A DNA stretch of 64,000 nucleotides from a virus (IMGVR_UViG_3300046780_000888:1-64000), one strand, 5' to 3'. Counted from the stretch's first letter, positions 29,051 to 59,298 are shown. The notes: generated by a model not told the origin, from the sequence alone. Program-made: numbers and translations.

Positions 29051-29491
29051 ATGACCATCCGCCGCGCCGCCGGAACACTTCTCGTTGCCGAAACCAGCGG
29101 GCGGATCCTGCTGCTCTATCGCGCGGACGGGGAGGGATGGGCGACGCCTGGCGGCATGGCGGAGCCTGGCGAGACGCCCGCCGAGACGGCGCAGCGTGAG
29201 CTCGACGAGGAGACGGGGCTCGCGTCGATCTTCACGGACTGCGTTGTCGATTATCAGTTCGCGCTCCTCGCGGATGGCACCGTGGTTGAGGCGTCAGCGG
29301 AGCGCCTCCCCGCCGACACGAGGTTGCTCTACGACATGTTCGTGTGCACGGTGCGAGAGGAGTTCGTCCCCACGCTCAACGCGGAGCACAGGGCGTGGCG
29401 CTGGGTACGGCCGAGCGAAGTTGGGGGGCCAGTACATCTACATCCAGGTGCGGCCTGTGCGATTCAACGACTCATGAAGGATTACGGATGA
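29051..29491 (+). CDS. NUDIX hydrolase
   Basis: Nudix box [25 protein letters not shown]. Confidence 0.92.
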
Positions 29492-30018
29492 CGATAACTC
29501 AAGTACTTATCGCGCTCGCGACGGTCGGCGCCGCCGCCTGGCTTGGTATTCGTAGATCGATTCTCCGGTACCGGGAAATATTGCGATTCAAGCAGGCGGC
29601 GGCTGACGCATGGAAAGCTGCGGAGGCGGCGAAGGAGGCCGCCGACAAGCTCGGCGCTCTTGCGACGCTTCACGAGCGCCGCGCGTCCGAATTTCTCAGT
29701 ATTATCTCTGGCATAGAGAAGGAGCGCGACGGGTGGCAGAAGTTTTACCAGGATTCGAGCCATGCGGCGGGGGTCGCGCAAGCCTGGCTCGCCCGGGACC
29801 TGCAGCGGGTGCTCGATGCCTCGAATCGGATGGCAGCAAAGTTGCGAGTACTGGGGCAGTCCGTGGCGGATGTTCGGGCCGATCCAGGTCTCGAGGCGGT
29901 CCTGGCTCATTTTACCGAGGTTCACGGGCCAGGGCAGGCGACTCTCCCGCGAGCGCCAGGGATGGAAGCGGCTGAAAAAGTCGAAAAATCGCTCCCTCCA
30001 ACCACAGTAACCACCTAA
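29488..30018 (+). CDS. N-terminally anchored coiled-coil membrane protein
   Basis: TM helix followed by an Ala/Lys helix. Confidence 0.6.
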
Positions 30019-30069
30019 CGGTGTCGGCCCCTTGCTCCGCGGGGGTCATGTGCTTACCGTAGGGCGTAC

Positions 30070-30804
30070 ATGTCCGACGATAGCGAGTCCCGCGACGCCG
30101 CGGAGCCGAAGGATGCCGTTATCGAAGGTCCCGAGGCGAGCGAGGATGCGGAGACGGAGTTCAATCCGTTTTCCGAGGTAGCCGACGAGTTTCAGCCGGG
30201 CCCTGCGGTTCGGGTTATGGGACCGGACGGGCTGCCGCAAACGGTCGACACGACAACACCGAGCGACATCCCGGCGCTCTCGAAAGAGACACTCGTGTGC
30301 ATGGGCGACTTCTCGAAGTTCGTCTGTCGGGACAAATGGGGGTGCACGACGGCGGAATTCGAGCCGAGCGAGGTGACCCGGATGCCGAATGGCGAATGGG
30401 TCGCACCGATGCGGCTAGTCGTGGAGCGTCTGAAGCCGAGACCCCACTGGTCGTTTTTGGATCAAACCAGCGACTATCACCCCGTTTCCCCGATCCGTCC
30501 GCCGTGCCGTCACTACGTGCGGCAGCTCGGCAGCTTCGAGCACAATGCCCAGAACAAGGCGACGTATCGTCTCTGCGCCGCTCGCCGCACAACGGAAGGC
30601 ACGTTCATGAGTCTCCGCGACACGGGGCTCTGGGGGTGCGACATGCGAGAGCCCTACGACGCTGCGAGCGTGAAGGCGATCGATGACTTCGACGCGCAGA
30701 AGATCGCCGAGGGCGCTCGCCGCCAGCACCTTCCGATGTTTCAAGGATACGGCGGTGGGATCTTCGACACGACCACGCCACAGAGTGAGCCGAAGGAGAA
30801 TTGA
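30070..30804 (+). CDS. Hypothetical protein
   Basis: 244 aa with scattered Cys residues. Confidence 0.7.
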   Translation: MSDDSESRDAAEPKDAVIEGPEASEDAETEFNPFSEVADEFQPGPAVRVMGPDGLPQTVDTTTPSDIPALSKETLVCMGDFSKFVCRDKWGCTTAEFEPSEVTRMPNGEWVAPMRLVVERLKPRPHWSFLDQTSDYHPVSPIRPPCRHYVRQLGSFEHNAQNKATYRLCAARRTTEGTFMSLRDTGLWGCDMREPYDAASVKAIDDFDAQKIAEGARRQHLPMFQGYGGGIFDTTTPQSEPKEN

Positions 30805-30807
30805 ACG

Positions 30808-31344
30808 ATGCCCGAGCCGACCCAAATGCAGACGACCGAACCAGAGGGTGATGACGTGGACACGGAGGCAGAGTTTCGGTCGCTCTGGACTGACGCCGAC
30901 GAGGGCCGCGCTCGATTCGAGTCGCTAGCGAAGGCAGCCGACACGGCGGGACAGGCGGACATCGCGAAGGTCTATCGCGAGGTTGCCGGCACGGTCATGA
31001 CGCTGATGGCAGATCTCGCCGCAGCGACCGGAGGGGCGATCTCTCACGTCGAAGCAGAGCTCGACGAGATGCCTGCGGGCGGAGCCGCCGACGGCTCGCA
31101 GCTCTTGCCGGAAGATGCGGAGAAGTACCTGCAGCTATTCGAGCAGTACATCCGATTGCTGGATGGTCTCGAGCAGGTAGTCCCGTCGGGAACGGAGGGG
31201 GACACGCAGCGCGAGATCTTCGCGACCTTGCGGCGTCTGACGGAAGGCATGAGCGAATTCACTCGTTCGATCACCCTGCTGGACGACGATGACGATGATG
31301 ACGACGAGCCGGAGGACGATCCGGAAGAAACCCCGGACGCATGA
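30808..31344 (+). CDS. Acidic helical hypothetical protein
   Basis: AAGGAG RBS; poly-Asp C-terminus. Confidence 0.7.
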   Translation: MPEPTQMQTTEPEGDDVDTEAEFRSLWTDADEGRARFESLAKAADTAGQADIAKVYREVAGTVMTLMADLAAATGGAISHVEAELDEMPAGGAADGSQLLPEDAEKYLQLFEQYIRLLDGLEQVVPSGTEGDTQREIFATLRRLTEGMSEFTRSITLLDDDDDDDDEPEDDPEETPDA

Positions 31345-33884
31345 GCGAGGTCGCCCAAGAGCCCGCGGCTACGGCGCAGATCGATCGGCAGCTTCTCGCT
31401 GAGTCGAGATTGTACGACGTGCCCTACAAGGCCTACGCGGAGATGACCCCGCGGATGCGTGGAGCGGTGAAGGGCCGATGGGTGGCGGCGCTCCGGCTCG
31501 AGGCGAAGCGCCGCGGCATCGATCCGGATGAGTTCGTTGCAATGGACGAAGAGGGGCGGGCGCGGGCCCGAGAGGAGAACCCGGAACGCCCGAAGCCCGC
31601 CTCGCGGCGAGAGAGTTCGGGCACGATCCGATCGTTCGAGGAGGTGATGAGTCGCCATCCTGACCCTTCGGAGAAACGCGCGCCACGCGCCGTTGAGGTC
31701 GCCCCCGTGTACGACCAGGGACTGACGGATGGAGATCCGGACGATGGCGAGCCGCACTCACCCATGAACGAGGTGCCGCCAACGGAGGGCGACCCGAGGA
31801 TGCGCGATCGCGCGACGCTTGGTGAAGTGCGGCCTACTGACAACGAAGATCTCGCTGGCTGGAAGCAACCGCGGAATCTGCTCGACGTGTACGCTCGCTA
31901 CTCCGTCGGAGACGGGCAGCACTTCGTGCGAGTCGAGCGCGTCGAGCCGAAGGTGTGGCAAGGGATCCCGTGCTCTGGTTACCTGGGCGAGATCCGTCTT
32001 CCGATCACCGAGGTCGAGTTTCAGGCCTGGTATGGCGGACGCGTCTATCAGCTCACCGTCTACGGCCCCGATCCTCGGGGACGCCGCGATCCGACAACGG
32101 GCTTGCCTGTGATCAAGGCCAAGACCGAACCGTTTCGATACATAGTCCCTGTGCAGCCGAACCTGGCGCTGCGACCGGGCATCAATCCGAGCAAACAACC
32201 GCATGGAGAGCGCCCGATGATGCAGAGCCCATTTGGATTCCCAACGAGCGCTCCGGCAACGCCGGCCGACGCTTCGATGCACAAGACGACCATCGACTTT
32301 CTGGCGAGCACGCTGAACAACGCGCAAGCGGAGATGCGGCGTCTGCGCGACGAGCAGAGTAATGCCAACCGGCCAGACAAGGATGTCCTTTCGATCGTTA
32401 CCGGGGCGAACGACAAAGCTCTCGAGCAGGCCACGCAGGCAGCTGCGAAGAGGGAGGAGGCTCTCCAAGAGCAGCTCCGCGAATCGCGCGAGAACATGAA
32501 GCGGCTCGAGGCGCGACTCGAGAAAGAGGCGGAAGAACGCCGGCAGCAGCCCGCTCGCAGCGCGGCTCAGGAAACGAAGGAGCTGCTCCAGGTCGTTCAG
32601 CCAGGAAAGAACGCCGAGGAAGAGCTTGCGCGCCTCAGGAGCTCGTTCAGGGAGGATATGGACCGCGCACTCAGTGCGCACAAGGAGGAATGCAACAGGA
32701 TTCGCGAGTCGCACAAGGAGTCGATGGCTGCTCTGAAGGAGCGGCAAGAAGACGAGATGAAGCGGACGAAGGAGCGACTCGAAGACAGCGAGCGCCGCGC
32801 CCGCGAGCGCGAGACCGATCTCGATCGCAGTAAGCGCGAGCAGGAGGCAGAGCTCCGGCGACAGATGGACCAGGTTCGGTCGGACGAGCGCGCCGCGGCA
32901 ACGGCGCGCGTTCAGGAAACGGTGGCGCGCTTCGAGGAGCGGATCAAGGACATGAAGGATTCGCATGCGCGCGAGCTCCGGATGCAGGGGGAGCAGCACG
33001 CGACGCGCATCGACACGACGAAGAGTAATCTCGACATGCAGCTCGCCGCCGCCAAAGAGCGAGTGACGAAGCTCGAGGAAGAGCTCGAACAAGCTCGAGA
33101 GGAAGCGGAGACGGCCAAGGATCCGGTGGCCGTCATCAAGAAAGCGGAGGCCACCGCCGAAGCGATGGGCTTCAAGAAGGAAGATAACGGCCCCATCACT
33201 GCCTGGGAGCGCTTCGCTGCGATGAGCGGCACTGGGCTCGCCAAGGCGCTCGAGACGATCGATCAGTGGTTGCCGAGAGCGATGGAGGCGCGAGCGCAGC
33301 GCCCGGCGTTGCCGGCGGGGCCGCCCCCGCGGCAGCTCGCTCAGGGGGCACCGGCTCAGGACCCGCGGGTCATCCGGCAACCGAGCAGGCGTTCGGTGTC
33401 CTTCGCAACGCAGGGCTCCGTTCCGGTCGCGGGGCATCATCCGACGATCCCGCCGTCGTCGCAGGCTCCGTTCGCTCCTGCGCCTCCGCCCGTTCAGGCG
33501 GCGCCGCCTCAAGCCGCGCCGCAACCCCAGCCTCCCGAGCCGACGCCGCAGCAGCAGCCTGTTCCGACGAACGGGCAGTCCCTCGGCGGAGCGGTTCCCG
33601 ACGAAGCAATCGCGGCGTTCAGAGCGGAGGTGGAGCGATCGATCAACGGCAGCTTCCCAGCGGAGATCTTCGCGCAGCAGTTCGTCGAGGCGTACCCGGA
33701 GCCGAGTCGTGCCCTGGTGACGATGTACAAGCCGGAGAACTTCATCGAGCTCGTGCGAGCGATGCCGGGCGGAGCGGAATCAGTGATCTTGCGGCGTGAT
33801 GGGAAGAAGTGGGTCGAGAAACTGTGGCAGCAGATCGTGGCGCAGCATCAGGCGATTGCTGCACCGCAGCCGTCGCCGTCATGA
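31341..33884 (+). CDS. Large coiled-coil protein with Pro-rich linker (possible assembly/scaffold factor)
   Basis: 847 aa; long E/R/K heptad region, Pro/Gln-rich segment, helical C-domain. Confidence 0.75.
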   Translation: MSEVAQEPAATAQIDRQLLAESRLYDVPYKAYAEMTPRMRGAVKGRWVAALRLEAKRRGIDPDEFVAMDEEGRARAREENPERPKPASRRESSGTIRSFEEVMSRHPDPSEKRAPRAVEVAPVYDQGLTDGDPDDGEPHSPMNEVPPTEGDPRMRDRATLGEVRPTDNEDLAGWKQPRNLLDVYARYSVGDGQHFVRVERVEPKVWQGIPCSGYLGEIRLPITEVEFQAWYGGRVYQLTVYGPDPRGRRDPTTGLPVIKAKTEPFRYIVPVQPNLALRPGINPSKQPHGERPMMQSPFGFPTSAPATPADASMHKTTIDFLASTLNNAQAEMRRLRDEQSNANRPDKDVLSIVTGANDKALEQATQAAAKREEALQEQLRESRENMKRLEARLEKEAEERRQQPARSAAQETKELLQVVQPGKNAEEELARLRSSFREDMDRALSAHKEECNRIRESHKESMAALKERQEDEMKRTKERLEDSERRARERETDLDRSKREQEAELRRQMDQVRSDERAAATARVQETVARFEERIKDMKDSHARELRMQGEQHATRIDTTKSNLDMQLAAAKERVTKLEEELEQAREEAETAKDPVAVIKKAEATAEAMGFKKEDNGPITAWERFAAMSGTGLAKALETIDQWLPRAMEARAQRPALPAGPPPRQLAQGAPAQDPRVIRQPSRRSVSFATQGSVPVAGHHPTIPPSSQAPFAPAPPPVQAAPPQAAPQPQPPEPTPQQQPVPTNGQSLGGAVPDEAIAAFRAEVERSINGSFPAEIFAQQFVEAYPEPSRALVTMYKPENFIELVRAMPGGAESVILRRDGKKWVEKLWQQIVAQHQAIAAPQPSPS

Positions 33885-34072
33885 AAGGAAAACCCCGACT
33901 TTAGTCCCGGTGAAGCGCTTTCCCTGCCCGGGTGCAGGGTCGAAAGGCGTCCCTGAGGAATAACCAAAAACTCAGGGACTCCCGCGCGACGAGCGGCTTC
34001 TGCATCGTGACCGCGAGGCCTGGTACTCACGATACTTGATTGCTCCCCGTGCTGCCAGGTAGACTGGCTCTC

Positions 34073-34552
34073 ATGTTCCACGGCACCGGACTCGGACGAG
34101 GCGGCGGAGGTGGAGGCCACGGCGGTGGCGGCGGGCATCACGGTGGAGGCGGAGGGGGCCACCACGGTGGCGGGGGTGGCGGACACCGTGGCGGAGGAGG
34201 CCGCCGCGGGGGCGGCACGGTCGTAGTTCAGGGAGGAGGCTGGGGTCCCGGGTGGTACGGAGGCGACGCCTCGTACCCGTACCCGTACCCGTACCCGGTC
34301 GTGGTCGAACCAGACTGCCCGGTGATCGATACCTACGGCAACTGCGTCTGTCAGCTCGTCGACAACAGCGGTCGCTGCGTTGCTGGGCTCGGTGACGACG
34401 CGGCGGCGCCGCCGCCGGCGCCGCTCGAGGCCGCGGCGACCGGCGCGTCGTCCACGACGTGGATCACCGGCGGTCTCATCATCCTTATCGCGTTCGGGGT
34501 GATGGCGCTTGACAAGAAGGGCCCAGCTCCGATTCGGAGCCGAGCGGCCTAG
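34073..34552 (+). CDS. Gly/His-rich tail-anchored membrane protein
   Basis: GGGHHGGG repeats, YPYPYPYP, Cys cluster, AGLGDD, C-terminal TM helix. Confidence 0.7.
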   Translation: MFHGTGLGRGGGGGGHGGGGGHHGGGGGGHHGGGGGGHRGGGGRRGGGTVVVQGGGWGPGWYGGDASYPYPYPYPVVVEPDCPVIDTYGNCVCQLVDNSGRCVAGLGDDAAAPPPAPLEAAATGASSTTWITGGLIILIAFGVMALDKKGPAPIRSRAA

Positions 34553-34680: not shown

Positions 34681-34794
34681 CCCGGTACTGTAGCGCCTTT
34701 TCGGCCAAGAAAACCGAGCGCTTGAGTTACTGGGCCACCGCAAGTACAGTTCCCAGTGCAGGGCGCTTCCCGACCCCCGGCTCGGGATTCGTCT

Positions 34795-35349
34795 ATGCTC
34801 GCCGCCAACCCCCCGCACGTCACTTCCGGGTTTCAAGGTCACCCGGACACGCTGCGTACCATGGTGCGACAGGCGCAGGGGCCGCGAGGAGAGCAGAGCT
34901 TGCTCGTTCGCCGCATGACCGAAGAGGTCATCCGCCGAGTGCAGCCGAAGGACTACCTCGGAGAGATCCTCGCTCTACGGTATTGGGTCACCGAGAAGGT
35001 GCGGTACACGAACGATCCTCTCCACGTCGAACTCGTGCGTGATCCGGAAGCGCTCGTCGAAGAGATCGATCAGCACGGAGTCGTCACGGCGGACTGCGAC
35101 GAAAGCGCAGAGCTCATCGCCACGATGGCACTTCAGCTCGGTCGCGTCGCCGAGTACGTGGTCGTCGGGTTCGGTGAGCCTGGACAGTACAGCCACGTCT
35201 TCGCTCGAGTGCAGGAGCCGCGCACTGGAAAATGGATCGTGACGGATAACGTCGCGGGTTCGGACGAGCGGGGCATGCTCGATCGGGTGACGACGTTCTA
35301 CACGGTGAGCCTCGATGAGCCTCCGGGAGCGATGAGAAACATCACATGA
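34795..35349 (+). CDS. Transglutaminase-fold cysteine protease (candidate maturation protease)
   Basis: VRYTNDP..VELV..P, ADCDE (Cys), YSHVF (His), WIVTD (Asp). Confidence 0.8.
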   Translation: MLAANPPHVTSGFQGHPDTLRTMVRQAQGPRGEQSLLVRRMTEEVIRRVQPKDYLGEILALRYWVTEKVRYTNDPLHVELVRDPEALVEEIDQHGVVTADCDESAELIATMALQLGRVAEYVVVGFGEPGQYSHVFARVQEPRTGKWIVTDNVAGSDERGMLDRVTTFYTVSLDEPPGAMRNIT

Positions 35350-36050
35350 GCGCACGCTACCGAAATCGCCGTCCACCGTACCCAGTGTACGCATCGCAAC
35401 CGATGTTCGGCGGCGATCTTCCGACCATCGACGAGATCGGGCCGCCAGATATGCGGGCGAGCGGGTTGAACCCGTACTACGACCTCAATAGCGGCGCGCA
35501 CGGCCGCAACTTCGCGGGCCTTGGAGGCAACATGCAGAGCGCTGACGTCGGCATCCAGAACTACCCCAACGAGCTCGACCTTCTCGCCGCGGCGGACGAC
35601 GTGCAGGGCAATGGCGTCTTCGACCCGGCAGGGACGCAAGGCAACATCCATCCGGACTACGGGGTGTTCGCGGATCACGAGAACCTCCCCGGGTACCTCG
35701 TCCGCGATCAGATGTATCAACCGAGCCAGGTCATCGACGGCACGACGGGCGAGCCGGTGCTCTACGTTCCGGGCGGCGCCGTCGCGATCGACCAGAGTCA
35801 GTTCGATACCATCCGCGCCCGCCAGCTCCTGTGGGAGCTCCCGCCCGGAGTAAGCCCCGAGCCGACGCAGGAGCCGAACGACGGAGAGACCTGGATCCCG
35901 AACGAGGATTCGTGGGCGGTCAACGGGCTCGGCGACGAGGCCATTGCGGCGCCGTCTGGCGGCACGTCCTCGAGAACGGGGCTCATCGCGGGCTTTGCCA
36001 TCGTCGGGCTCTCGATCGGCATCTTGGCCGCGACGCTGATGAAGAAGTAG
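35346..36050 (+). CDS. Tail-anchored virion membrane protein
   Basis: AGLGG and NGLGDE motifs; C-terminal TM helix plus KK. Confidence 0.7.
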   Translation: MSARYRNRRPPYPVYASQPMFGGDLPTIDEIGPPDMRASGLNPYYDLNSGAHGRNFAGLGGNMQSADVGIQNYPNELDLLAAADDVQGNGVFDPAGTQGNIHPDYGVFADHENLPGYLVRDQMYQPSQVIDGTTGEPVLYVPGGAVAIDQSQFDTIRARQLLWELPPGVSPEPTQEPNDGETWIPNEDSWAVNGLGDEAIAAPSGGTSSRTGLIAGFAIVGLSIGILAATLMKK

Positions 36051-36064
36051 GAGAGGCTCCCATC

Positions 36065-36466
36065 ATGGATCGCATGCAGGACTTTCGGACCATTCTTCCC
36101 ACGTTCAATACCATCGGCCCTTCGTCTGACGACGCGCCGATGTTCCCGAACAGAGAGGGGATCGGGAAGCTTCGGTTGTTCGCTCTGTCGCCCGTTGTCT
36201 CCGCAATGCGTGGGCTCGGCGACGATCCGGTGATCCCGGGCGCTCCCGCCACCCCGCTTATCGGTCGAGCGAGCGGCACCGACGTCGTCTGGGCGATGGT
36301 GATCCTTGGGCTCGTGGGAGCGGCGTCCTACCAGGCCGGCAAGGCCATCGCGCCGTCACACGACGCGCGGTCGACGTGGGGCTGGATCGGAGTTCCGGTC
36401 GGCCTCTTCACCGGCGTTCTCGGGCTTGGCATCATGGGCTACGTCGCCAACGGAAAGAAGGCCTGA
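36065..36466 (+). CDS. Membrane protein
   Basis: MRGLGDD followed by two TM helices and GKKA. Confidence 0.7.
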   Translation: MDRMQDFRTILPTFNTIGPSSDDAPMFPNREGIGKLRLFALSPVVSAMRGLGDDPVIPGAPATPLIGRASGTDVVWAMVILGLVGAASYQAGKAIAPSHDARSTWGWIGVPVGLFTGVLGLGIMGYVANGKKA

Positions 36467-36469
36467 TCG

Positions 36470-36826
36470 ATGGGCTGCGGATGCAACAACGGAGGAGGAA
36501 CCGGCATGCGAGGCCTTGGTCTGTCCATGAACACGTACAACGGCCCCGTTCCTCCCGGCGTGCCGAATCCGTTCACCGTGATGCTGCACAGCTACCCGAC
36601 GCGGTACCACGGGCCGATCTACACGCGTCCGATGTACGATCTGCCATGGGCGGAGCGCCCGAACGACTTCGGTCTCGAGCCGCAGATGAACGGCCTCGGG
36701 ATCGAACCGGCGGACGTCACGATCAAGCCGATGGAGCCCTGGAAGGTTGCCGTGGGCATCGCGGCGGCCATCGGCATCGTCTACGTCGCCATGCAAATGG
36801 GAGGGCCGCACCGTGTACGTGCGTGA
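36470..36826 (+). CDS. Tail-anchored membrane protein
   Basis: MGCGC start, MRGLG and MNGLG motifs, C-terminal TM helix. Confidence 0.7.
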   Translation: MGCGCNNGGGTGMRGLGLSMNTYNGPVPPGVPNPFTVMLHSYPTRYHGPIYTRPMYDLPWAERPNDFGLEPQMNGLGIEPADVTIKPMEPWKVAVGIAAAIGIVYVAMQMGGPHRVRA

Positions 36827-37669: not shown

Positions 37670-37670
37670 G

Positions 37671-38417: not shown

Positions 38418-38423
38418 CGGTTC

Positions 38424-39050: not shown

Positions 39051-39057
39051 TTCCGGA

Positions 39058-39423: not shown

Positions 39424-39429
39424 GCCGCG

Positions 39430-50406: not shown

Positions 50407-50533
50407 TTCACTCACAGAAGCCAGCCGGTCGTTGTCGCTTTTTCGGCGGGTATCGATGAACGCCCTCGCGTCGGACATGCGGGACGCCAAGTCGTACTCG
50501 GGAAACGGCGACCGGCTGGCTTCTGTGAGTGAA
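50407..50533. repeat. 25-bp perfect inverted repeat enclosing 77 nt
   Basis: TTCACTCACAGAAGCCAGCCGGTCG (50407-50431) and CGACCGGCTGGCTTCTGTGAGTGAA (50509-50533). Confidence 0.95.
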
Positions 50534-51369: not shown

Positions 51370-52142
51370 CCTATCGAACCATGCACGGGCTCGGGGCTAC
51401 GCCTCCGCCTCCGACACTCAGCGACGCGTCTCTCGCGCTCTTTCTGAAGGGCTACCTGGCAACCGGTGGCTGTGCGACGCCGGCAGTGAAAGCGAACTTC
51501 GACGCGCTCAGCTGCTTGAACAACCAACTCGTCCAGATCGGGGGAGCCTGTTACCTCGGCCGTACACCGACGGGGCTCACCGATTTAGAGTTTGCTAGTG
51601 CGTGCATGGATCTCGCCAAGTGCGGAGTCTTCACGAAGCCGGGCTGCCCCGCGGACTCCGCGCCGTATCTCAGCTCGGTGCCGAAGTGCCTGAACGCGGA
51701 CGTCGGACCGCTGGTGGACTACTGCCGGCAGTATCCGCAGTTCAACGGCGACAACAAACAGGCCAACGCAGCATGCTGGGCGATGTCCCGCTATCAGGAC
51801 GTTTACCAGAAGGTGATGGCGCTCGGTCCGTGCCCATCCCCGTCCGTCACGGTCGCGCCCCCGGTGTATCAACCGGCTCCTCCTCCCCCGTCGGCCGCGC
51901 CACCGGCGTATCAGCCGCCGCCTCCATCCGACATGCCGCCTCCCCAGCAATCGTCGGCTCCTCCCGGCTCGCCCGAGGCGACGCCAGGACCGATCGATGT
52001 CGCTCCTCCGGACTCCGGTTCAAGCGTGACGACGGATGCCGGGGCGCCGCCCCCTGCGCCCCAAAAATCCAACATGATGATGTGGGGCCTCGCGGGCGCT
52101 GCGGCGCTCGGTGTGGGGTACCTCATTTTCAGAAAGAAGTAG
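51366..52142 (+). CDS. Cys-rich tail-anchored protein (paralog of 52146)
   Basis: MHGLGA; YCRQYPQFNGDNKQANAACWA; Pro-rich stalk; TM helix plus RKK. Confidence 0.75.
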   Translation: MTYRTMHGLGATPPPPTLSDASLALFLKGYLATGGCATPAVKANFDALSCLNNQLVQIGGACYLGRTPTGLTDLEFASACMDLAKCGVFTKPGCPADSAPYLSSVPKCLNADVGPLVDYCRQYPQFNGDNKQANAACWAMSRYQDVYQKVMALGPCPSPSVTVAPPVYQPAPPPPSAAPPAYQPPPPSDMPPPQQSSAPPGSPEATPGPIDVAPPDSGSSVTTDAGAPPPAPQKSNMMMWGLAGAAALGVGYLIFRKK

Positions 52143-52145
52143 ACG

Positions 52146-52865
52146 ATGTACAGCGGAGTAGGACTGCTTGAATCAACGGCGACGGGCGTTCGATCTGTCC
52201 CGCGTCCAACGTGCATCACTCCGGATGAGCGAGCGGAGGCTAACGCGAAGTGCCCTCACGTGGTGCTCCGCGGCGTCGGACTGGGGCAGGCAACGGCCCC
52301 GATGTCCGGTCGCCTGGCCGCGTTCTCGGCGTGCGACGTAAAGGATCTTCCGGATTGCGCCACGCCGACGTGTCTCGATCAGTACACCGCAGGGCTTATC
52401 GCGGGATGCATTGCAGGTACGCCTGGGGATCCTGACTTCGATTGCACGTCGCTCTACACGTACGCGCTCTCGCGCCTTCCGTTCTGCACCGGCGGCGGCG
52501 TCCTTCCTCCGCTTCCGACCTGCCTCACGCCGGATGTCGTGGCGATCATCCAGTACTGCCGGCAGTACCCCGCGGCGAACGGTCCGAACAAAGCGGCGAA
52601 CGCGGCGTGTTGGGCCATCACGCATGATTCCAGGTACTGGACCGCCCTCCAGGCGCTACCCGCGTGCGGAACGGGACAGGCTCTCGAACCCCCGAGGCAC
52701 GTGACGCCGCCGCCTGCGATGCCGCCGCCGTCGCCCCCGGTCGCTCAGGGCCCCGGTGCTGCAGCGCCCAAAACCGAAGCGTCGATGTCCGGCATGTTCG
52801 GGATCCTGGCGCTCGTTGCTGTCGCTGGCGGCGGGTTCTACATGTACCGGAAGTACAAGAAATAG
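52146..52865 (+). CDS. Cys-rich tail-anchored protein (paralog of 51366)
   Basis: YCRQYPAANGPNKAANAACWA; TM helix plus RKYKK. Confidence 0.75.
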   Translation: MYSGVGLLESTATGVRSVPRPTCITPDERAEANAKCPHVVLRGVGLGQATAPMSGRLAAFSACDVKDLPDCATPTCLDQYTAGLIAGCIAGTPGDPDFDCTSLYTYALSRLPFCTGGGVLPPLPTCLTPDVVAIIQYCRQYPAANGPNKAANAACWAITHDSRYWTALQALPACGTGQALEPPRHVTPPPAMPPPSPPVAQGPGAAAPKTEASMSGMFGILALVAVAGGGFYMYRKYKK

Positions 52866-52870
52866 CGTCC

Positions 52871-53092
52871 ATGAACATGAACCTCGTCGCCATCGCCGGC
52901 GTGCCGCCGGTTTCGGACATGTCCGGAAAGCTCGTCGGCGTCGGCGGTTGCGGGTGTACGGGCTTCGGCGACACGCCACCGACGGAGGAGCAGCGGAATG
53001 CTCTCAACTGGACGGCCCTTGTCTTCTTCGGGGTCGCGCTCGGGATTGGATATTTCCTGCTCCGTGAGCCCTCGGGCAGGAGAACGCGGTAG
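52871..53092 (+). CDS. Small tail-anchored protein
   Basis: GCGCTGFGDT, then a TM helix. Confidence 0.6.
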   Translation: MNMNLVAIAGVPPVSDMSGKLVGVGGCGCTGFGDTPPTEEQRNALNWTALVFFGVALGIGYFLLREPSGRRTR

Positions 53093-53313
53093 TGGATAAC
53101 ATGAAGGCTGCCGTGAACGCGGCCGAGGCCCTCGGGCCCACGCTCGATACCGTCGGCGGGCCCCTCGGGCTCGTCGGGCGCGCCATCGGGCTCGGAGCTG
53201 ACGAACTCGACGCCGGGGTACCGAAGTGGGCCTGGCTCGGGATTGGGGTCGTAGCGGGCGGGATTGCCATGTACTTTTTGCGGCCTCGCGTCGAGGCTTT
53301 CGTCGGCGACTGA
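53092..53313 (+). CDS. Small tail-anchored protein
   Basis: IGLGADE, then WAWLGIGVVAGGIAMYFLR. Confidence 0.65.
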   Translation: MDNMKAAVNAAEALGPTLDTVGGPLGLVGRAIGLGADELDAGVPKWAWLGIGVVAGGIAMYFLRPRVEAFVGD

Positions 53314-53349
53314 GCCGGAGTACCCTTTTGGGTAGAAACAGAGGATCAC

Positions 53350-54474
53350 ATGCTCGGAGCGTATTTCGGCAGCACGACAATCACCCAGGGCGCAGGCGGC
53401 TTGGGTCAGGACGGCCCACTCATGGCGTACGCGGACGGTGTGGTCGGCGGGAACGCGGAGAGCGCGGACACGCCGGGTCCTCTCTTCGCTTACCAGGATG
53501 GCTCACTCGGTGCGACGGCGCTCGCGGTTCCAGCGTCCATTCAGGCAGCAGTGCGAGCGAGGAAAGCGAAGACTCTGATCGAGCAGTACATGCAGCGCTG
53601 CATCGCGGCGCATGCACCATCAGCGACGCGTGCCCAGAAATGCGGGACGATGGCCTATATGTGGGCCCGACAAAACGGACTATTGGCCCAATCGCGTCTT
53701 CCGCGAAGCTTCTTCGGTTTGACCGGCCTCGGGCAAGACGGTCCGCTCATGGCGTACGCGGACGGAGTCGTCGGCGGCCAAGCCGCAGATGCGGACATGC
53801 CCGGGCCAATCGTTGCGTACCACGACGGCTCGCTCGGCGATGCTGGGGACGACGATGCGACGCCCGTCGATGCCTTCCACGATGGCGTTCTCGGCCCGCA
53901 CTATGATGGGATGGACACGTTCGGGCCGCTCATGGCGTACCACGACGGATCGCTCGGCGCGACGCAGGTCTCGCTTGATCTCGGCGACCAGTCGGCGCTG
54001 ACCGAGGTGAAGTCGATGATGGCGCTCCTCGCTCCGGAGCAGACGCTGACGGCGGACGGGCAGAAGGTGTACACGCCTGATTGGTACACGAGCGGGATCT
54101 GGGATCCGCAGGCTTCTCTCCTCTGGCAGTACATCGTCTCGAAGACGGCGGCATTCAGCGGCAAGGACGTGAGCGTCACGGCCGGTGACCAGACCTATCC
54201 GAACGCAACAGCCATCGGGTTCATGGTCTCGACGATCGGCGCCCCGACCGCGTCGAGCTACGGTCCGGACTACCTGAAGAAGAACTTCCCGATCCTTTCG
54301 GCGTGGTTCTCCGCAGGCGGCGGTCCCGTGCTCGCGCCCTACCTCTCGCTCGCGGACAAGACGCGGGAAGAGCGTGCGGGCGCAGGCGGCGGCACCAAGA
54401 TGAGCACGATGGCGATGTACGGCCTCGGCGCCGTGGCTCTCCTCGGGCTTGCGCTCGTGTTCCGGAGGAAATGA
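53350..54474 (+). CDS. Repeat-containing tail-anchored protein
   Basis: Repeats GLGQDGPLMAYADGVVGG and AYxDGSLG; TM helix plus RRK. Confidence 0.75.
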   Translation: MLGAYFGSTTITQGAGGLGQDGPLMAYADGVVGGNAESADTPGPLFAYQDGSLGATALAVPASIQAAVRARKAKTLIEQYMQRCIAAHAPSATRAQKCGTMAYMWARQNGLLAQSRLPRSFFGLTGLGQDGPLMAYADGVVGGQAADADMPGPIVAYHDGSLGDAGDDDATPVDAFHDGVLGPHYDGMDTFGPLMAYHDGSLGATQVSLDLGDQSALTEVKSMMALLAPEQTLTADGQKVYTPDWYTSGIWDPQASLLWQYIVSKTAAFSGKDVSVTAGDQTYPNATAIGFMVSTIGAPTASSYGPDYLKKNFPILSAWFSAGGGPVLAPYLSLADKTREERAGAGGGTKMSTMAMYGLGAVALLGLALVFRRK

Positions 54475-54477
54475 GTC

Positions 54478-54666
54478 ATGGGCTACCGCACCGATCAGAA
54501 CCAGTGGGCCATGGGCGAGTACTTCGCGGCGAGCGGCGGCCTCGGCGAGACCCTCGCCGCTGAAGGGACCACGACTGACGACGAGTCCTGGAAGAAGCCG
54601 TGGTTCTTCGGACTCTTCGTTGGGGCGCTGGTCGGGTACTCGTTCGCTCATCTGACGAAGAAGTAG
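54478..54666 (+). CDS. Small tail-anchored protein
   Basis: AMGEYF..SGGLGET; TM helix plus KK. Confidence 0.65.
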   Translation: MGYRTDQNQWAMGEYFAASGGLGETLAAEGTTTDDESWKKPWFFGLFVGALVGYSFAHLTKK

Positions 54667-54673
54667 AGGCTCC

Positions 54674-55294
54674 ATGGTGGACCTCTTCGAGCGCATCCGC
54701 CGAGTGACCGGTGACATTCAGTGGGGGTCGTTCGTTGCCGTGATGGCGAGGAACGTGGGGGAGTCGTCCGACGCGGCGCACGAGGTCGTCGAGCAGCTGA
54801 AAGAGTGGGGCTCGCATCTCACGCGAAACGCGCTCTTGAAATGGACGATGGCGATCGCGGCGCCGACACCGTGCGCCTGTCCGGGCGTTGCTAGCGGCGG
54901 CAAGACGAAGCCTTGCGAGTGGATCGCGATCGTCAAGTGCGACGCGTGCGGGCGACCCTGCTGCCTCGCGCATGCGCGAGTGGACTACGCGGCAGAAGCG
55001 ATCTGTGCCGTCTGCATCGTGGGAGCAAAGGCGCGGGCTCAGAGCTACGCGAATGTAGACGCGCAAGCGCCCGGGCGTCCGGGTGTCATGACGCGGTCGC
55101 AAGCTCTCAAGACACTCCGCCTTTCGGCGACGGCGGAGTGGGCGCAGATCAAGAAGCAGTACTACCGGCTCGCGATGAAGTACAACCCGGACCGACCCGG
55201 CAAGCAGCAAGCGGCGAACACCGAGCGGATGAAGAAGATCAACGCGGCGTTCGAGGTGCTCCGGGAAGAGCACGAGCGGAAGGCGGCAGCGTGA
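54674..55294 (+). CDS. Zn-finger plus C-terminal J-domain protein (HPD replaced by NPD)
   Basis: CDACGRPCCLAH...CAVC; ALKTLRL...IKKQYYRLAMKYNPDR...MKKINAAFEVL. Confidence 0.8.
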   Translation: MVDLFERIRRVTGDIQWGSFVAVMARNVGESSDAAHEVVEQLKEWGSHLTRNALLKWTMAIAAPTPCACPGVASGGKTKPCEWIAIVKCDACGRPCCLAHARVDYAAEAICAVCIVGAKARAQSYANVDAQAPGRPGVMTRSQALKTLRLSATAEWAQIKKQYYRLAMKYNPDRPGKQQAANTERMKKINAAFEVLREEHERKAAA

Positions 55295-56153: not shown

Positions 56154-56327
56154 ATGCAACCGCCCCGCGTCGCGTACTGGGACGAGAGCCTCGGGCGTCT
56201 CGTCGAGTCCGAAGAGCCGGACTTCGACGCCGAGCGCTTTAGTGCGATGATGGCGGCGGGCTGCGATGTGACGGAGCGGGACACCATGCCGGCACCACCG
56301 CCCGTGCCTGAGGAGTACGACCGATGA
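56154..56327 (+). CDS. Small hypothetical protein
   Basis: MQPPRVAYWDESLG...; coupled to the next gene. Confidence 0.45.
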   Translation: MQPPRVAYWDESLGRLVESEEPDFDAERFSAMMAAGCDVTERDTMPAPPPVPEEYDR

Positions 56328-56749
56328 TGCGTCCAGTCGGCAGCTATTGGAACGTTCCTGATTCGGACTATCAGGAGCTGCCCGTCGGCACTCCCGGCTG
56401 GCAGGACGCGCCGGTCCCTGGCTGGGGAATCAACCCGTTACGGGCGGGGCCCATGCGAGTGGGCATCGGGCTCGGTGGCGGGATCTGGGACGAAGACGGT
56501 CCCCTCCCTCGATACACGCCCATCGGGAGCCTCGGAGATCACTTCTCGGAGGATGCCGAGACGCTGCACTACGGTGGCAGCATCCCGTGGCAGGACGCGG
56601 TGCTGCCGAATTACTTCCCGCTCGGCGCCGATCCGGAAGCGGCGTATCACGAGACGAGCTACGGCGTCGTCGCCGGGGGCATGGCGATTGGCATCGGACT
56701 CGGGATCCTGTTCGGGTACGCATGGTGGGGACAGAAGCACACCAGCTGA
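56324..56749 (+). CDS. Tail-anchored protein
   Basis: IGLGG, GSLGD and PLGAD motifs; C-terminal TM helix. Confidence 0.65.
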   Translation: MMRPVGSYWNVPDSDYQELPVGTPGWQDAPVPGWGINPLRAGPMRVGIGLGGGIWDEDGPLPRYTPIGSLGDHFSEDAETLHYGGSIPWQDAVLPNYFPLGADPEAAYHETSYGVVAGGMAIGIGLGILFGYAWWGQKHTS

Positions 56750-56777: not shown

Positions 56778-57200
56778 ATGACTCAATATGCAACCGCAGA
56801 ACTCTCGGACGTGACGAACAGCTTCATTCAAGCAGCGGAAGCCAGCGAGCTTGCGGCGCGCCTGAATGCGGTGCTGCAGGACACTGGCGGAGGAAGCGCC
56901 GTCCTCTCACTCCATCTCGCGGGAGGCGGAGATGGACATACGTTCGTTGTCGCCATCGAGCGCTCGGAGAGCGTGACAGGGGGCACAGCGCTGACCGACG
57001 AGAATCTCATCGGGTGCTACCTCGCGGCCTCCGAGAGTGAGCTCGCGGTGGCGAAAGACGCGTGTGTCGCCGCAATGCTGGCACTACCTCCCCCGTCCGG
57101 GGGAGAGACGCTCGCCGTGGTGGATGATCAGATCGCCGGCGCCTCAAAGGGCACGCGCTTCATGGGGATGATCGTCGCTATCTATCACGGTGGCGGCTGA
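56778..57200 (+). CDS. Stand-alone spike-anchor domain protein
   Basis: LSLHLAGGGDGHTFVV.IE...CYLA...QIAGASKGTRFMGMIV is homologous to the N-termini of 57830 and 3936. Confidence 0.7.
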   Translation: MTQYATAELSDVTNSFIQAAEASELAARLNAVLQDTGGGSAVLSLHLAGGGDGHTFVVAIERSESVTGGTALTDENLIGCYLAASESELAVAKDACVAAMLALPPPSGGETLAVVDDQIAGASKGTRFMGMIVAIYHGGG

Positions 57201-57214: not shown

Positions 57215-57538
57215 GTGATGCGCAAAAACACCCATCTCCCGAGCAGAGACTACCTCGAGCCTGAAGACCTCGGGGAGACGCTGCTTGAGGAGATGGACGA
57301 GCTCGCGGCCGATGCCCTCGACGTCGAGGCCGAGCATGTGGAGGTCTCGCTGTTCTGCCGGAAGGGCGCCGAGGGCGGCGACGACTGCTACGGGTACGAG
57401 ATCTTGATCCGTGGCGAGCACCGCCGCGTGGACGACGAGTTCGCGTCGATCCTCGCCGCGATCGAATCCTTCGAGGAGTGGTGCGAGCAGCGACTTGGTG
57501 ACTCTCAGGACGCCGCCGCAGACGCCGATGAGGATTGA
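57215..57538 (+). CDS. Acidic hypothetical protein
   Basis: 107 aa, D/E-rich. Confidence 0.6.
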   Translation: MMRKNTHLPSRDYLEPEDLGETLLEEMDELAADALDVEAEHVEVSLFCRKGAEGGDDCYGYEILIRGEHRRVDDEFASILAAIESFEEWCEQRLGDSQDAAADADED

Positions 57539-57541
57539 TCG

Positions 57542-57814
57542 ATGCTCGGCTACGTCGGCTACCTCAGGGCAACGGGCGCCGTAGAGACGCGTCAGGCGGT
57601 CGTGTCGTGCCCGACGTGCACGTATCTGGAGGACGGGACCTGCGTCGTCTGTGTGTCGCCGGATGACCACCCGGCGTGTGACGGGTGCCGCAACGGCCAG
57701 GTCATCTGGTATCGCAGGCCTCTGTTCGTGTCGGTCGTCATGGCGGTGACCGTCTCCTTGATCGCTGGCCTCGCGGTGAGTCAGATCAAGAAACGGACCG
57801 ACTTTTTCGACTGA
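57542..57814 (+). CDS. Small Cys-rich tail-anchored protein
   Basis: CPTC..CVVC..CDGC; TM helix plus KKR. Confidence 0.6.
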   Translation: MLGYVGYLRATGAVETRQAVVSCPTCTYLEDGTCVVCVSPDDHPACDGCRNGQVIWYRRPLFVSVVMAVTVSLIAGLAVSQIKKRTDFFD

Positions 57815-57829
57815 AGGAGAGAGAGCATC

Positions 57830-58990
57830 ATGTCTAGGTATGGCAGCATTGCAGTGACGGTCCCGGCGTCGGTCATTACTAGGATCGTAGAGAGCTCCGA
57901 TCCGGCAGATCTGCAAGCTCGGGTCAATGCCGCGATTGCAGCGCTTCCGGGCGGAAGCGTAGTTACGGCGCTCACCCTGGCGGGCGCCGGGGATGGTGCG
58001 CTCTTTACGGTCACGATCGAGGCCGGAGCCGCGGCGGACGTGACAGGAGGCTTCGCGAGCCCACCGTCGGTGGTCTGCTTCCTGGGTTCCAATGCAGAGA
58101 GCATGCTCATTGCTCACGGCATCGTCGGCAACGGTGCGTTCGCGGACGTGCAGGTGGCGGGAGCCTCGAAGGGCACCCGGTTCATGGGGATGCTGGTGAC
58201 GGGTACGGTGGTAGAGGGTGGCGGCGGGACCATCAGTCCGTTTTCTGCTCTCGCGTATGTGGACCCTGGGACAACCACGCCGGGACCGGATCAGACCGGG
58301 TCTGTGGCGGCGCCGTTTAGCACTGTCCAGGCAGCGCTCGATGCTGGTTTCAGTCACGTGTACCTGACTGCGACCTCATTAGAGGACGTCGTGGCCCCCG
58401 GGTTCGTGTTTCTGACGGGCACCGATCGGGTTGTCGGGATCCGGTCGCTGACGCTGCCGGATGACAGCGGTGCGATTCTCGATAATGTCAGCGTGGCCCC
58501 TGGGAGCCTCGTGGCGGGTGACCGATGCCAAGTCATCACCAATGCGTCGGTGAGAACAGCGGTCTTTGGAGACAATGGGTTTCTGGTCCTGAACGGGCCC
58601 GGAGCGTTGAGCTTCGTGTTCCTTACGTCTCAGTTGACGCTAGGGGCCCTGACGATGGGAGCGAGTGGGACCGTCCTTGCGACGAATACGCTCTGCACCT
58701 CAGGGACAACTATCTCGGCCAACGCCGTCGAGATGTTTGGGTGCACATGCCGCTCGAGTGTGACAGCGAATTCGTTCGAGGCGCAGAGTTCGCACCTCAC
58801 CATAGGTACCTACACGACGACGGGGCCAGTGAATTTGCAGAACGTCAAGTGTAGCGCCGGCGTCGCGTTCGATAACGCGCTCGGGCAAGCCTTCAACCTG
58901 GATGGGTTCTCGAACTACTGGATCAAGACGAACGGCGTCACGCTCACCAATGCCGGAGAGAAGGTCATCACCGATGACCTGACCCCGTGA
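57830..58990 (+). CDS. Spike/receptor-binding protein: anchor domain plus beta-helix-like domain
   Basis: Shared N-terminal domain. YVDPG...GSVAAPFSTVQAALD precedes beta-solenoid-like sequence. Confidence 0.7.
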   Translation: MSRYGSIAVTVPASVITRIVESSDPADLQARVNAAIAALPGGSVVTALTLAGAGDGALFTVTIEAGAAADVTGGFASPPSVVCFLGSNAESMLIAHGIVGNGAFADVQVAGASKGTRFMGMLVTGTVVEGGGGTISPFSALAYVDPGTTTPGPDQTGSVAAPFSTVQAALDAGFSHVYLTATSLEDVVAPGFVFLTGTDRVVGIRSLTLPDDSGAILDNVSVAPGSLVAGDRCQVITNASVRTAVFGDNGFLVLNGPGALSFVFLTSQLTLGALTMGASGTVLATNTLCTSGTTISANAVEMFGCTCRSSVTANSFEAQSSHLTIGTYTTTGPVNLQNVKCSAGVAFDNALGQAFNLDGFSNYWIKTNGVTLTNAGEKVITDDLTP

Positions 58991-59298
58991 TGGGTGACGT
59001 TACGCTCCTTCCGGAGACTCCAGCTCAGAGTCAGATGGCGGTACTCGCCTTCGCGAGCATTCTCGGCGGCGGGCTCGTGGCCTACGAGGTGGGGAACGCA
59101 ATCAAGGATGGAGATCTCTTCAAAACGGATGCCGTCCCGGAGAATCCCAAGGCCGGCTTCGTGGCCATGACGGGAGGCCTCGTAATGCTGGGGTTTATGA
59201 TGAACGAAGCTGTCAAGGAAGTCGGCTGGAAACCACTCGCGCTCGGCTCGCTCGGGATCTTCGCCATCGCTGCCGTGGCGACCGCTGCCCGTCGTTGA
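58987..59298 (+). CDS. Three-TM small membrane protein (holin-like candidate)
   Basis: Three hydrophobic segments; ends in ARR. Confidence 0.5.
   Translation: MMGDVTLLPETPAQSQMAVLAFASILGGGLVAYEVGNAIKDGDLFKTDAVPENPKAGFVAMTGGLVMLGFMMNEAVKEVGWKPLALGSLGIFAIAAVATAARR

What the first reader, a model, noticed from the sequence alone, without database searches (positions are those of the whole stretch)
29488..59298. Large tailless, membrane-containing bacterial virus with a 30-kb virion module
Seen: no terminase, portal, HK97 capsid or tail genes. Instead there are about 25 genes ending in one hydrophobic helix plus a K/R tail, LysM and peptidoglycan-binding proteins, a protamine-like protein, three consecutive soluble beta-rich 270-320 aa proteins, and spikes. 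Established: characterised lipid-containing bacteriophages (tecti-, cortico-, P23-77-like) have genomes of roughly 10-20 kb. Inference: an undescribed, much larger lineage of jelly-roll viruses, probably temperate (recombinase, TA module), infecting a high-GC bacterium.
Basis: partly seen in the sequence, partly recalled or inferred. Interest (0 to 1): 0.85.

Follow-up and report, generated by a model that had tools for sequence, protein, structure and literature searches.

The report
Large tailless membrane-rich soil bacterial virus
This stretch is most likely the particle-building half of a 120-kb uncultured soil bacterial virus that has no head, tail or DNA-pumping genes of ordinary phages and instead seems to wrap its DNA with a very basic protein, a protein-packed membrane and a shell of small beta-sandwich proteins.

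Summary
The window is the first 64 kb of a 130,395-bp virus record whose ends repeat, giving a 120,508-bp unit. I found no terminase, portal, HK97 capsid or FtsK-type ATPase in it or in complete relatives. The only P-loops are DnaB and its loader.

The block at 30-59 kb holds:
- 17-22 of 35 called ORFs ending in a helix plus K/R tail, against 4 of 151 elsewhere;
- an 847-aa protein with 196 K/R in its first 520 residues;
- three conserved soluble proteins;
- a DnaJ protein, a protease-like core gene, and spikes with a shared N-terminal domain.

The core is syntenic in 15-22 of 22 related loci, from records of 38-182 kb.

Temperate lifestyle, a TA module and LysM were not confirmed, and the host is unknown.

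This scan reached the same reading earlier on related DNA. Four literature searches found no description.

The parts
30070..30804 (+). Core gene of unknown function (244 aa, Cys-rich), first conserved gene of the module
   Evidence: Homologue in 17 of 17 related virus records; no Pfam or PHROG family
30808..31344 (+). Acidic 178-aa protein with a poly-Asp tail; possible scaffold or chaperone for the basic core protein (inference)
   Evidence: Translation; no PHROG family
31341..33884 (+). 847-aa core protein with a long charged helical middle and a Pro/Gln-rich stretch; candidate scaffold or size-determining protein (inference)
   Evidence: Homologue in 17 of 17 related records, 24-59% identity; no Pfam or PHROG family
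34040..34552 (+). Gly/His-rich protein with a C-terminal anchor
34756..35349 (+). Transglutaminase-like (papain-type) cysteine protease candidate; probable maturation protease
   Evidence: Transglut_core E 0.001, 19.8 bits, under the cut-off of 23; homologue in 17 of 17 related records at 47-75% identity; Cys, His and Asp in the expected order, seen by eye
35346..40658 (+). Array of nine genes for C-terminally anchored membrane proteins (g055-g063); three carry weak peptidoglycan-binding-like motifs
   Evidence: anchors; PG_binding_1 E 0.0057, PG_binding_3 E 0.0097, both under cut-off; 40317-40658 is conserved in 17 of 22 loci
41224..43152 (+). Large (642 aa from 41224; ORF opens at 40906) C-terminally anchored protein of unknown function
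   Evidence: no Pfam or PHROG family; conserved in 9 of 22 loci
43355..44736 (+). Two more C-terminally anchored proteins (346 and 123 aa)
44841..47384 (+). Protamine-like core protein. Residues 1-520 are 38% K/R, followed by three hydrophobic segments (about 534-633) and a tail with GMGEYF-type repeats
   Evidence: 196 K/R against 11 D/E in residues 1-520, hydrophobic peaks; conserved in 19 of 22 loci; no Pfam or PHROG family
47539..48354 (+). Best-conserved gene; candidate major shell protein with a jelly-roll-like beta-sandwich
48518..49489 (+). Second shell candidate: 60-residue N-terminal helix plus an all-beta domain
49500..50402 (+). Third shell candidate (possible vertex protein, inference); fold not tested
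   Evidence: In 21 of 22 loci; closed family of 194 clusters at 50% identity; no PDB, Pfam or PHROG match
50407..50533 (.). Perfect 25-bp inverted repeat with a 77-nt interior, filling the gap after the three shell candidates
50554..54666 (+). Second array of C-terminally anchored proteins (g074-g079); g075 and g076 are paralogues
   Evidence: g074 in 16 and g077 in 15 of 22 loci
54674..55294 (+). Cys-rich protein with a C-terminal J domain; probably recruits host DnaK during assembly (inference)
   Evidence: DnaJ E 1.8e-13; in 17 of 22 loci
56324..56749 (+). C-terminally anchored protein
56778..57200 (+). Stand-alone copy of the spike N-terminal anchor domain
   Evidence: BLASTP to 57830-58990, E 4e-18
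57542..57814 (+). Small Cys-rich C-terminally anchored protein
57830..58990 (+). Spike or fibre candidate: shared anchor domain (about 1-130) plus a Thr/Gly/Val-rich beta-type body
   Evidence: no Pfam family
58987..59298 (+). Small membrane protein with two hydrophobic segments
1081..4005 (-). Collagen-repeat fibre carrying the same N-terminal anchor domain; lies outside the finding's range (probable start near 3936)
   Evidence: Collagen E 1.9e-59; 56% identity over 131 residues to 57830-58990, E 3e-38
60181..60474 (+). GroES (Cpn10) co-chaperonin just downstream of the module
   Evidence: Cpn10 E 3.2e-23

Best explanation
The window carries the virion module (about 30-59 kb) of a complete genome of about 120.5 kb with a circular map. 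It belongs to a widespread, uncultured lineage of bacterial viruses from soil that has neither tail nor DNA-packaging motor.

Proposed working; all of these steps are inferred:
1. The 847-aa protein condenses the DNA with its 38% K/R N-terminal part and is itself held in a membrane by its hydrophobic segments.
2. About twenty tail-anchored proteins fill that membrane. Their soluble parts point to the shell side and their short K/R tails point to the DNA side.
3. The three conserved soluble proteins (47539, 48518, 49500) form the outer shell over the membrane.
4. A papain-type protease (34756) trims virion proteins at G-L-G sites.
5. A J-domain protein and GroES help folding.
6. Fibres and spikes that share one docking domain bind the host.

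The genome would thus be enclosed by co-condensation and wrapping, as proposed for PM2 and seen in the build of SPV1, and not by pumping into a preformed head.

What is shown: the gene content, the conservation, the absence of hallmark genes and the enrichment of anchors and motifs.
For: - Virus record; the ends overlap, giving a 120,508-bp unit. Relatives of 111-179 kb carry 33-123-bp end overlaps and are rated 100% complete.
- No Terminase_6N, TerL_ATPase, GpA_ATPase, FtsK_SpoIIIE, Phage_portal or Phage_capsid in the record, nor in 3-4 relatives.
- The only P-loops are in DnaB and its loader.
- Of the 10 largest proteins in the rest of the genome, none is tail-like.
- 0 of 10 module proteins match a PHROG family.
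- Anchored proteins: 17 of 35 against 4 of 151.
- Basic protein: 196 K/R in 520 residues.
- The core genes are syntenic in 15-22 of 22 loci, and three more core genes occur in 17 of 17 records.
- The weak rows for 48518 are mostly jelly-roll capsids.
- G[LM]G occurs 33 times in the module; shuffles give 10.3+-3.3, and the rate elsewhere is seven times lower.
- The anchor domain is shared by five fibre or spike genes.
- SPV1 has the same three-layer build (PMC8459092, whole text).
- PM2 is proposed to enclose its DNA while membrane and shell form (PMC6356626, passages).
Against: - 48518 is modelled poorly (pLDDT 54). 49500 was not folded.
- The three proteins show no relation to each other by hhalign, nor to any PDB sequence.
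- No particle, lipid or virome evidence exists. All listed holders are bulk soil or rhizosphere metagenomes.
- Peptidoglycan-binding and protease assignments are below Pfam cut-offs.
- Atlas clusters of 48518 and 49500 relatives are labelled mostly Uroviricota by automatic taxonomy.
- Absence of hallmark genes rests on six Pfam models and a motif scan, not on an exhaustive profile search. Only 69 of about 186 proteins were scanned with Pfam and 20 with PHROGs.
Confidence: 0.55

Rival explanations
1. It is a virus with the same gene set but a different particle. The membrane would be an outer envelope or a pleomorphic vesicle studded with the anchored proteins, as in plasmaviruses, pleolipoviruses or enveloped eukaryotic viruses. 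The three soluble proteins would then be matrix, nucleocapsid or surface proteins, not an icosahedral shell.
For: About twenty single-pass proteins with short basic tails resemble envelope proteins with cytoplasmic tails. No packaging motor is present. The capsid-fold evidence is weak. Membrane-containing phages include enveloped and pleomorphic forms (PMC6356626, passages).
Against: The anchored proteins lack N-terminal signal peptides; 13 of the 17 strict cases have a single hydrophobic segment. Their large parts should therefore stay on the cytoplasmic side. The three soluble proteins are the best conserved genes, as shell proteins usually are. The best fold matches of 47539 include capsid jelly rolls.
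Confidence: 0.2
2. It is not a virus but a large plasmid-like element. It would remodel the cell envelope or spread in membrane vesicles that it helps to form, and it has been misclassified as viral by automatic tools.
For: No recognised capsid, portal or packaging gene. It carries plasmid-like functions: DnaB and loader, a XerC/D-type recombinase, methyltransferases and glycosyltransferases. Many membrane proteins are present. The record is known only from bulk metagenomes.
Against: No conjugation ATPase and no P-loop protein beyond the replication pair. There is an endolysin-like amidase with a PG-binding domain. Five fibre or spike genes share one docking domain. A protamine-like protein sits next to very conserved beta-sandwich proteins. 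Genome sizes are stable at 111-182 kb with a syntenic core. IMG/VR holds the records as viruses.
Confidence: 0.13
3. It is a tailed phage (Caudoviricetes) whose head, portal, terminase and tail genes are too divergent for the models used. 47539 would be a decoration or cement protein.
Against: No terminase-type ATPase motif appears anywhere in six frames. There were 0 matches at E<=1 for four ATPase families in 4 genomes. No large tail-type proteins are among the 10 largest proteins outside the window. 0 of 10 module proteins hit any PHROG. Neither model shows the mixed alpha/beta pattern of the HK97 fold.
Confidence: 0.07

Closest known systems
Portogloboviridae (Sulfolobus polyhedral virus 1, SPV1)
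   Different: SPV1 is an archaeal hyperthermophile virus of 20 kb. Here the genome is 120.5 kb and carries bacterial-type DnaB, DnaC and RuvC genes and a peptidoglycan amidase. No sequence similarity is detectable and the fold match is not significant. The core protein here is a huge membrane-anchored K/R-rich protein; homology to VP1 was not tested.
Bacterial viruses with two vertical single jelly-roll capsid proteins: Thermus phage P23-77 and Salisaeta phage SSIP-1
   Same: They are tailless, have an internal membrane and a circular dsDNA genome, and have two major capsid protein types (PMC6356626, passages). That the capsid genes lie side by side is my recall. They infect bacteria.
   Different: By my recall these viruses encode a packaging ATPase; none was found here. 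tblastn of 47539 against 50,697 phage records found no match, and 0 of 10 module proteins matched a PHROG.
Corticoviridae (PM2)
   Same: The genome is circular dsDNA. Encapsidation is proposed to occur together with formation of the membrane and shell, on a virus-specific membrane patch organised by transmembrane proteins (PMC6356626, passages).
   Different: By my recall PM2 has a 10-kb genome, a double jelly-roll capsid protein and a putative ATPase. Here the genome is twelve times larger, and a dedicated protamine-like protein is present.
Tectiviridae (PRD1)
   Same: The internal membrane is packed with viral proteins. The virion carries a muramidase and has vertex spikes (PMC6356626, passages).
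   Different: PRD1 pumps linear DNA into a procapsid with ATPase P9 through a unique vertex. No such ATPase is found here.
Adenovirus-type core and maturation (functional analogy only, from recall)
   Same: An arginine-rich core protein condenses the DNA. A viral cysteine protease cleaves many virion proteins at short glycine-containing sites.
   Different: The host domain differs, and the protease candidate here is transglutaminase or papain-like. No homology was tested. Cleavage at G-L-G is inferred only from motif enrichment.

Membership tests
Caudoviricetes (tailed phages, Duplodnaviria) | Terminase large subunit (ATPase-nuclease) | tested here: not met
   0 matches at E<=1 for Terminase_6N, TerL_ATPase and GpA_ATPase in the record and in 3-4 relatives. 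No Walker-A motif outside DnaB and its loader in six frames.
Caudoviricetes (tailed phages, Duplodnaviria) | Portal protein | tested here: inconclusive
   Only one model (Phage_portal, PF04860) was tried: 0 matches in 5 records. Other portal families were not searched.
Caudoviricetes (tailed phages, Duplodnaviria) | HK97-fold major capsid protein | tested here: inconclusive
   Phage_capsid: 0 matches in 5 records. The 47539 model is a beta-sandwich and the 48518 model is a helix plus all-beta at low confidence. 49500 and most other ORFs were not folded.
Bamfordvirae (PRD1, PM2, FLiP and kin) | [quoted passage not shown] | tested here: inconclusive
Bamfordvirae and Helvetiavirae (Varidnaviria) | FtsK/HerA-type genome packaging ATPase | tested here: not met
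   FtsK_SpoIIIE: 0 of 4 records at E<=1. No spare P-loop protein. A dedicated model of the viral A32/P9-type ATPase was not available to me.
Vertical single jelly-roll viruses (P23-77, SSIP-1, Sphaerolipoviridae) | Two adjacent single jelly-roll capsid proteins | tested here: inconclusive
Portogloboviridae | Single jelly-roll VP4/VP10-type shell proteins | tested here: inconclusive
Portogloboviridae | Archaeal (Sulfolobales) host and a genome of about 20 kb | tested here: not met
   120,508 bp. Bacterial-type DnaB, DnaC-like loader, RuvC and an amidase_2 lysin with PG_binding_1.
Portogloboviridae | VP1-type nucleocapsid protein forming a DNA-protein filament | not tested
   A basic protein is present, but no comparison with VP1 was made.
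Membrane-containing virus (any family) | Lipid in the particle | not testable with these tools
   Inferred only from 17-22 anchored proteins in the module.

The most novel reading that the evidence does not exclude
These genomes would represent a lineage of bacterial viruses at or near realm rank, unrelated to tailed phages and to the ATPase-bearing jelly-roll viruses. They reach 110-180 kb without any packaging motor. A membrane-anchored protamine-like protein condenses the DNA, a membrane loaded with about twenty tail-anchored proteins wraps it, and a shell is laid on top. Virion proteins would mature by proteome-wide cleavage at G-L-G. That assembly logic is otherwise seen in adenoviruses, poxviruses and archaeal SPV1.
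Probability: 0.35. Interest if true: 0.9.

Novelty: new variant of a known kind. Interest (0 to 1): 0.78.

Why it matters
Characterised membrane-containing bacterial viruses are small. ICTV abstracts give 16-19 kb for Simuloviridae and about 30 kbp for Sphaerolipoviridae (listing). PRD1, the best studied, fills its shell with a packaging ATPase.

A common soil lineage of 110-180 kb that does without any motor would change three things:
- It would raise the size limit for motor-less encapsidation about six-fold.
- It would give bacteria a counterpart of the archaeal SPV1 design.
- It would expose a large group that marker-based virus discovery mislabels or misses.

The lineage is broad: 691 homologues of the shell gene at 90% clustering, and 194 clusters at 50% identity for 49500. 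It also offers testable parts: a membrane-anchored DNA-condensing protein, a protease with a simple site, and a modular spike-docking domain.

Tried and rejected
- Profile searches of the three shell candidates against PDB sequences found only coiled-coil or chance rows; the best E-values were 0.037, 0.14 and 0.25.
- hhalign among the three families gave probabilities of 0.3% or less. They are therefore not detectably paralogous.
- Protein Atlas, 2 calls: the nearest clusters are unnamed 'hypothetical protein' clusters. There was no structure search because the Atlas holds no model.
- BFVD Foldseek for 47539: 0 hits at E<=0.001.
- Complex prediction with 47539, 48518 (residues 70-323) and 49500 (residues 55-300) returned 'no answer', score 0.00. 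This counts neither for nor against binding.
- Host search: 20 kb of the module (40001-60000) was compared with 401 genomes of the order of one Pirellulales MAG. Only that MAG's own viral contig matched. The other hits were 24-86-nt stretches of 72-100% identity at E 4e-6 to 0.01, and none looked like a CRISPR spacer. Only one sixth of the genome and one order were tried.
- The five MAG bins that hold relatives disagree on taxonomy: 2 Pirellulales, Pseudomonadota, Pseudomonadales and Methanomicrobiales. I assign no host.
- The look-up of sequencing runs listed no RNA holder. I did not lay reads.
- Promoter and terminator scan of 44-60 kb: 1 promoter-like site against 1.8 expected, and 15 terminator-like sites against 8.2+-3.1. 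I drew nothing from this.
- Literature: four searches found no description of tailless bacterial viruses above 100 kb. Supplements are closed and subscription journals are not held, so this is not proof of absence.
- TA module: no toxin-antitoxin family among the proteins scanned. Most small ORFs were not scanned.

Full report
WHAT THE DNA IS

The window is bases 1-64000 of a 130,395-bp IMG/VR virus record rated 96% complete. The last 9,887 bases repeat the first with one mismatch, so the unit genome is 120,508 bp. Two complete relatives have end overlaps of 123 and 33 bp. That is the signature of a circular or circularly permuted map, not of long terminal repeats. GC is 61-72%.

I called genes with a simple GC3-based script, which gave about 186 unique ORFs, a few of them certainly spurious.

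GENES OUTSIDE THE FINDING

Bases 17.5-28 kb hold a replication and nucleotide block: a DnaC-like loader, DnaB, RuvC, a CmcI-type methyltransferase and ThyX.

Upstream lie small minus-strand genes, an MT-A70 methyltransferase and a XerC/D-like tyrosine recombinase at 13755-14705.

The other half of the genome holds the following:
- a 1,359-aa protein with an integrase domain;
- an amidase_2 plus PG_binding_1 lysin;
- glycosyltransferases;
- a TnpB-like protein.

None of the ten largest proteins there is tail-like.

HALLMARK GENES

Six-frame searches of the whole record gave no match at E<=1 for Terminase_6N, Phage_portal and Phage_capsid. The same held for TerL_ATPase, GpA_ATPase and FtsK_SpoIIIE. 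Each model rang in control genomes.

The relatives were searched as follows:
- Terminase_6N, Phage_portal and Phage_capsid: G001-G004, of 136, 140, 179 and 182 kb; none found.
- TerL_ATPase, GpA_ATPase and FtsK_SpoIIIE: G001-G003 only; none found.

A six-frame motif scan found Walker-A boxes only in DnaB, plus chance hits in non-ATPase contexts. A looser scan added only the DnaC-like loader. The genome therefore seems to encode no DNA-translocating ATPase of any known viral kind.

The limits of this test are three. Six Pfam models were used. Only one portal model was tried. Only 69 distinct proteins went to Pfam and 20 to PHROGs.

THE MODULE

From 34.0 to 59.3 kb, 17 of 35 called ORFs end in a hydrophobic helix followed by K/R. 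Elsewhere the figure is 4 of 151. A looser rule gives 22 of 35. Thirteen of the 17 strict cases have that helix as their only hydrophobic segment. They are therefore tail-anchored proteins without signal peptides.

The other notable genes are these:
- **44841-47384.** Residues 1-520 hold 196 K/R against 11 D/E. Three hydrophobic segments follow, then a tail with GMGEYF-type repeats.
- **34756-35349.** Weak transglutaminase-core match, E 0.001, under the cut-off.
- **54674-55294.** Clear J domain, E 1.8e-13.
- **60181-60474.** GroES.
- **38424-39050 and 39058-39423.** Peptidoglycan-binding motifs, only weakly supported.
- **37091-37669.**
- **57830-58990.** Its first ~130 residues recur in the collagen fibre gene 1081-4005(-) (56% identity, E 3e-38), in 56778-57200 and in two genes in the other half of the genome. 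This is the pattern of exchangeable fibres that dock on one site.
- **G[LM]G motif.** It occurs 33 times in 7,700 residues of module ORFs against 17 in 28,205 elsewhere. Within-protein shuffles give 10.3+-3.3, with a maximum of 25 in 500. Many sites lie near N-termini, including residue 24 of 47539, where G24 is invariant in 42 sequences. This fits processing by the protease, but cleavage is not shown.

RELATIVES

47539 has 691 homologues at E<=0.001 in the 90%-clustered collection. The 120 listed are 59-92% identical and none is named or carries a Pfam domain. It has no match in 50,697 phage records.

Scans found 17 IMG/VR contigs of 38-182 kb and 5 MAG contigs. tblastn of my module proteins against these 22 loci (10 kb on each side of the gene) gave these counts:
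- 47539 in 22;
- 48518 and 49500 in 21 each;
- the basic protein in 19;
- 40317 and the J-domain protein in 17 each;
- 50554 in 16;
- 53092 in 15.

Further upstream, 30070, 31341 and 34756 each occur in 17 of 17 virus records, in the same order. The 49500 family is closed: 194 clusters at 50% identity, of which 178 are below E 1e-10.

Near-identical DNA is held by soil and rhizosphere metagenome runs. Leaving out six possible source runs, ten runs hold half or more of the sampled words.

FOLDS

47539, with a 42-sequence alignment, gave pLDDT 70.8 and pTM 0.73 with eight main strands and three helices.
- Foldseek found nothing at E<=0.001 in PDB or BFVD. Its first PDB row is SPV1 at E 0.13.
- Re-ranking Foldseek's list put TasA at 6.3 and SPV1 6oj0_A at 5.8.

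No profile links the three proteins to each other or to PDB sequences.

HOW IT MOST LIKELY WORKS (INFERENCE)

There is no motor, a membrane-anchored polycation sits next to the shell genes, and a membrane proteome of tail-anchored proteins is present. The simplest model is therefore condensation of the circular genome on a virus-modified patch of membrane, followed by wrapping and then coating by the three soluble proteins.

Tail-anchored topology would put the large domains between membrane and shell and the K/R tails next to the DNA. PM2 is thought to enclose its DNA in this concurrent way (PMC6356626, passages). SPV1 shows the three-layer result: jelly-roll shell, membrane with subcapsomer proteins, and nucleoprotein core. 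None of the nine SPV1 ORFs with assigned functions is a packaging ATPase (PMC8459092, whole text).

The peptidoglycan-binding-like domains on membrane proteins recall the virion-associated muramidase of PRD1 and would act at entry.

An enveloped or pleomorphic particle, a vesicle-spreading plasmid, and a very divergent tailed phage remain as rivals. I rate them 0.20, 0.13 and 0.07.

- 'Temperate' is not supported beyond the presence of integrase-family genes.
- I found no TA module.
- The only copies in 185,579 species genomes are on MAG contigs whose bins disagree in taxonomy.
- A trial against 401 Pirellulales genomes found no spacer-like match. The host is unknown.
- 'High-GC bacterium' is reasonable but unproven.

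NOVELTY

Four literature searches found no description of such viruses. Supplements and subscription journals could not be seen.

Within this scan the same lineage, or lineages like it, has been reported several times on other DNA with the same SPV1 or SSIP-1 comparison. Those are unchecked AI notes. My calls agree with them independently for the SPV1 match and for the absence of hallmark genes.

I class it as a new variant of a known kind: a membrane-containing jelly-roll-type virus. There is a real chance (0.35) that it is a separate high-rank lineage with its own assembly logic.

Noticed in passing
window 1-9887 and record 120509-130395: The record's two ends are the same 9,887 bases with 1 mismatch. 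The first 9.9 kb of the window (collagen fibre, MT-A70 and small genes) is therefore counted twice in the record. IMG/VR lists the record as linear.
   Followed up: yes
window 34040-59298 (module proteins): G[LM]G is seven-fold enriched in module proteins. Counts are 33 against 17 in nearly four times as many residues; shuffles give 10.3+-3.3. It often sits near N-termini and is invariant at G24 of 47539. This may be a protease site. It is also the subject of another note, e1-6247451.
   Followed up: partly
window 50407-50533: A perfect 25-bp inverted repeat with a 77-nt interior lies directly after the three shell candidates.
   Followed up: partly
relatives G004, G011, G016, G018: Homologues of 34756, 30070 and 31341 in these records each contain a single in-frame TGA. 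This could be recoding, a frameshift or an assembly error.
   Followed up: no
L018 10001-11192: The match to 47539 spans 1,192 bases here, against about 750-810 in the other loci. This fits an insertion such as the group I intron that earlier notes report in this gene.
   Followed up: no
record 68135-72214 (-), L002 4135-8214: A 1,359-aa protein has a tyrosine-integrase catalytic domain only at residues 478-549, with a long unexplained remainder.
   Followed up: no
window 13755-14705 (-): The XerC/D-like recombinase has GC3 of 0.90, the highest of any long gene here. It may be a recent capture from a host of higher GC.
   Followed up: no
window 22887-23822 and record 100109-101221: Two paralogous proteins of unknown function (29% identity over 310 residues, E 2e-27), one in each half of the genome.
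   Followed up: no
window 21047-22774: A 575-aa protein right after DnaB has no Pfam family and only a PHROG of unknown function (phrog_519, E 6e-12). No DNA polymerase or primase turned up among the 69 proteins scanned with Pfam or the 20 scanned with PHROGs.
   Followed up: no
G019 contig C77 14769-15197: The Pirellulales MAG that holds a related viral contig has a second, 40% identical copy of the protease-like domain. It lies inside a 396-aa frame on another contig.
   Followed up: no
window 44841-50402: Near-identical DNA is held by soil and rhizosphere metagenome runs of 2020 and 2023. Ten runs other than the possible sources hold half or more of the sampled words.
   Followed up: partly
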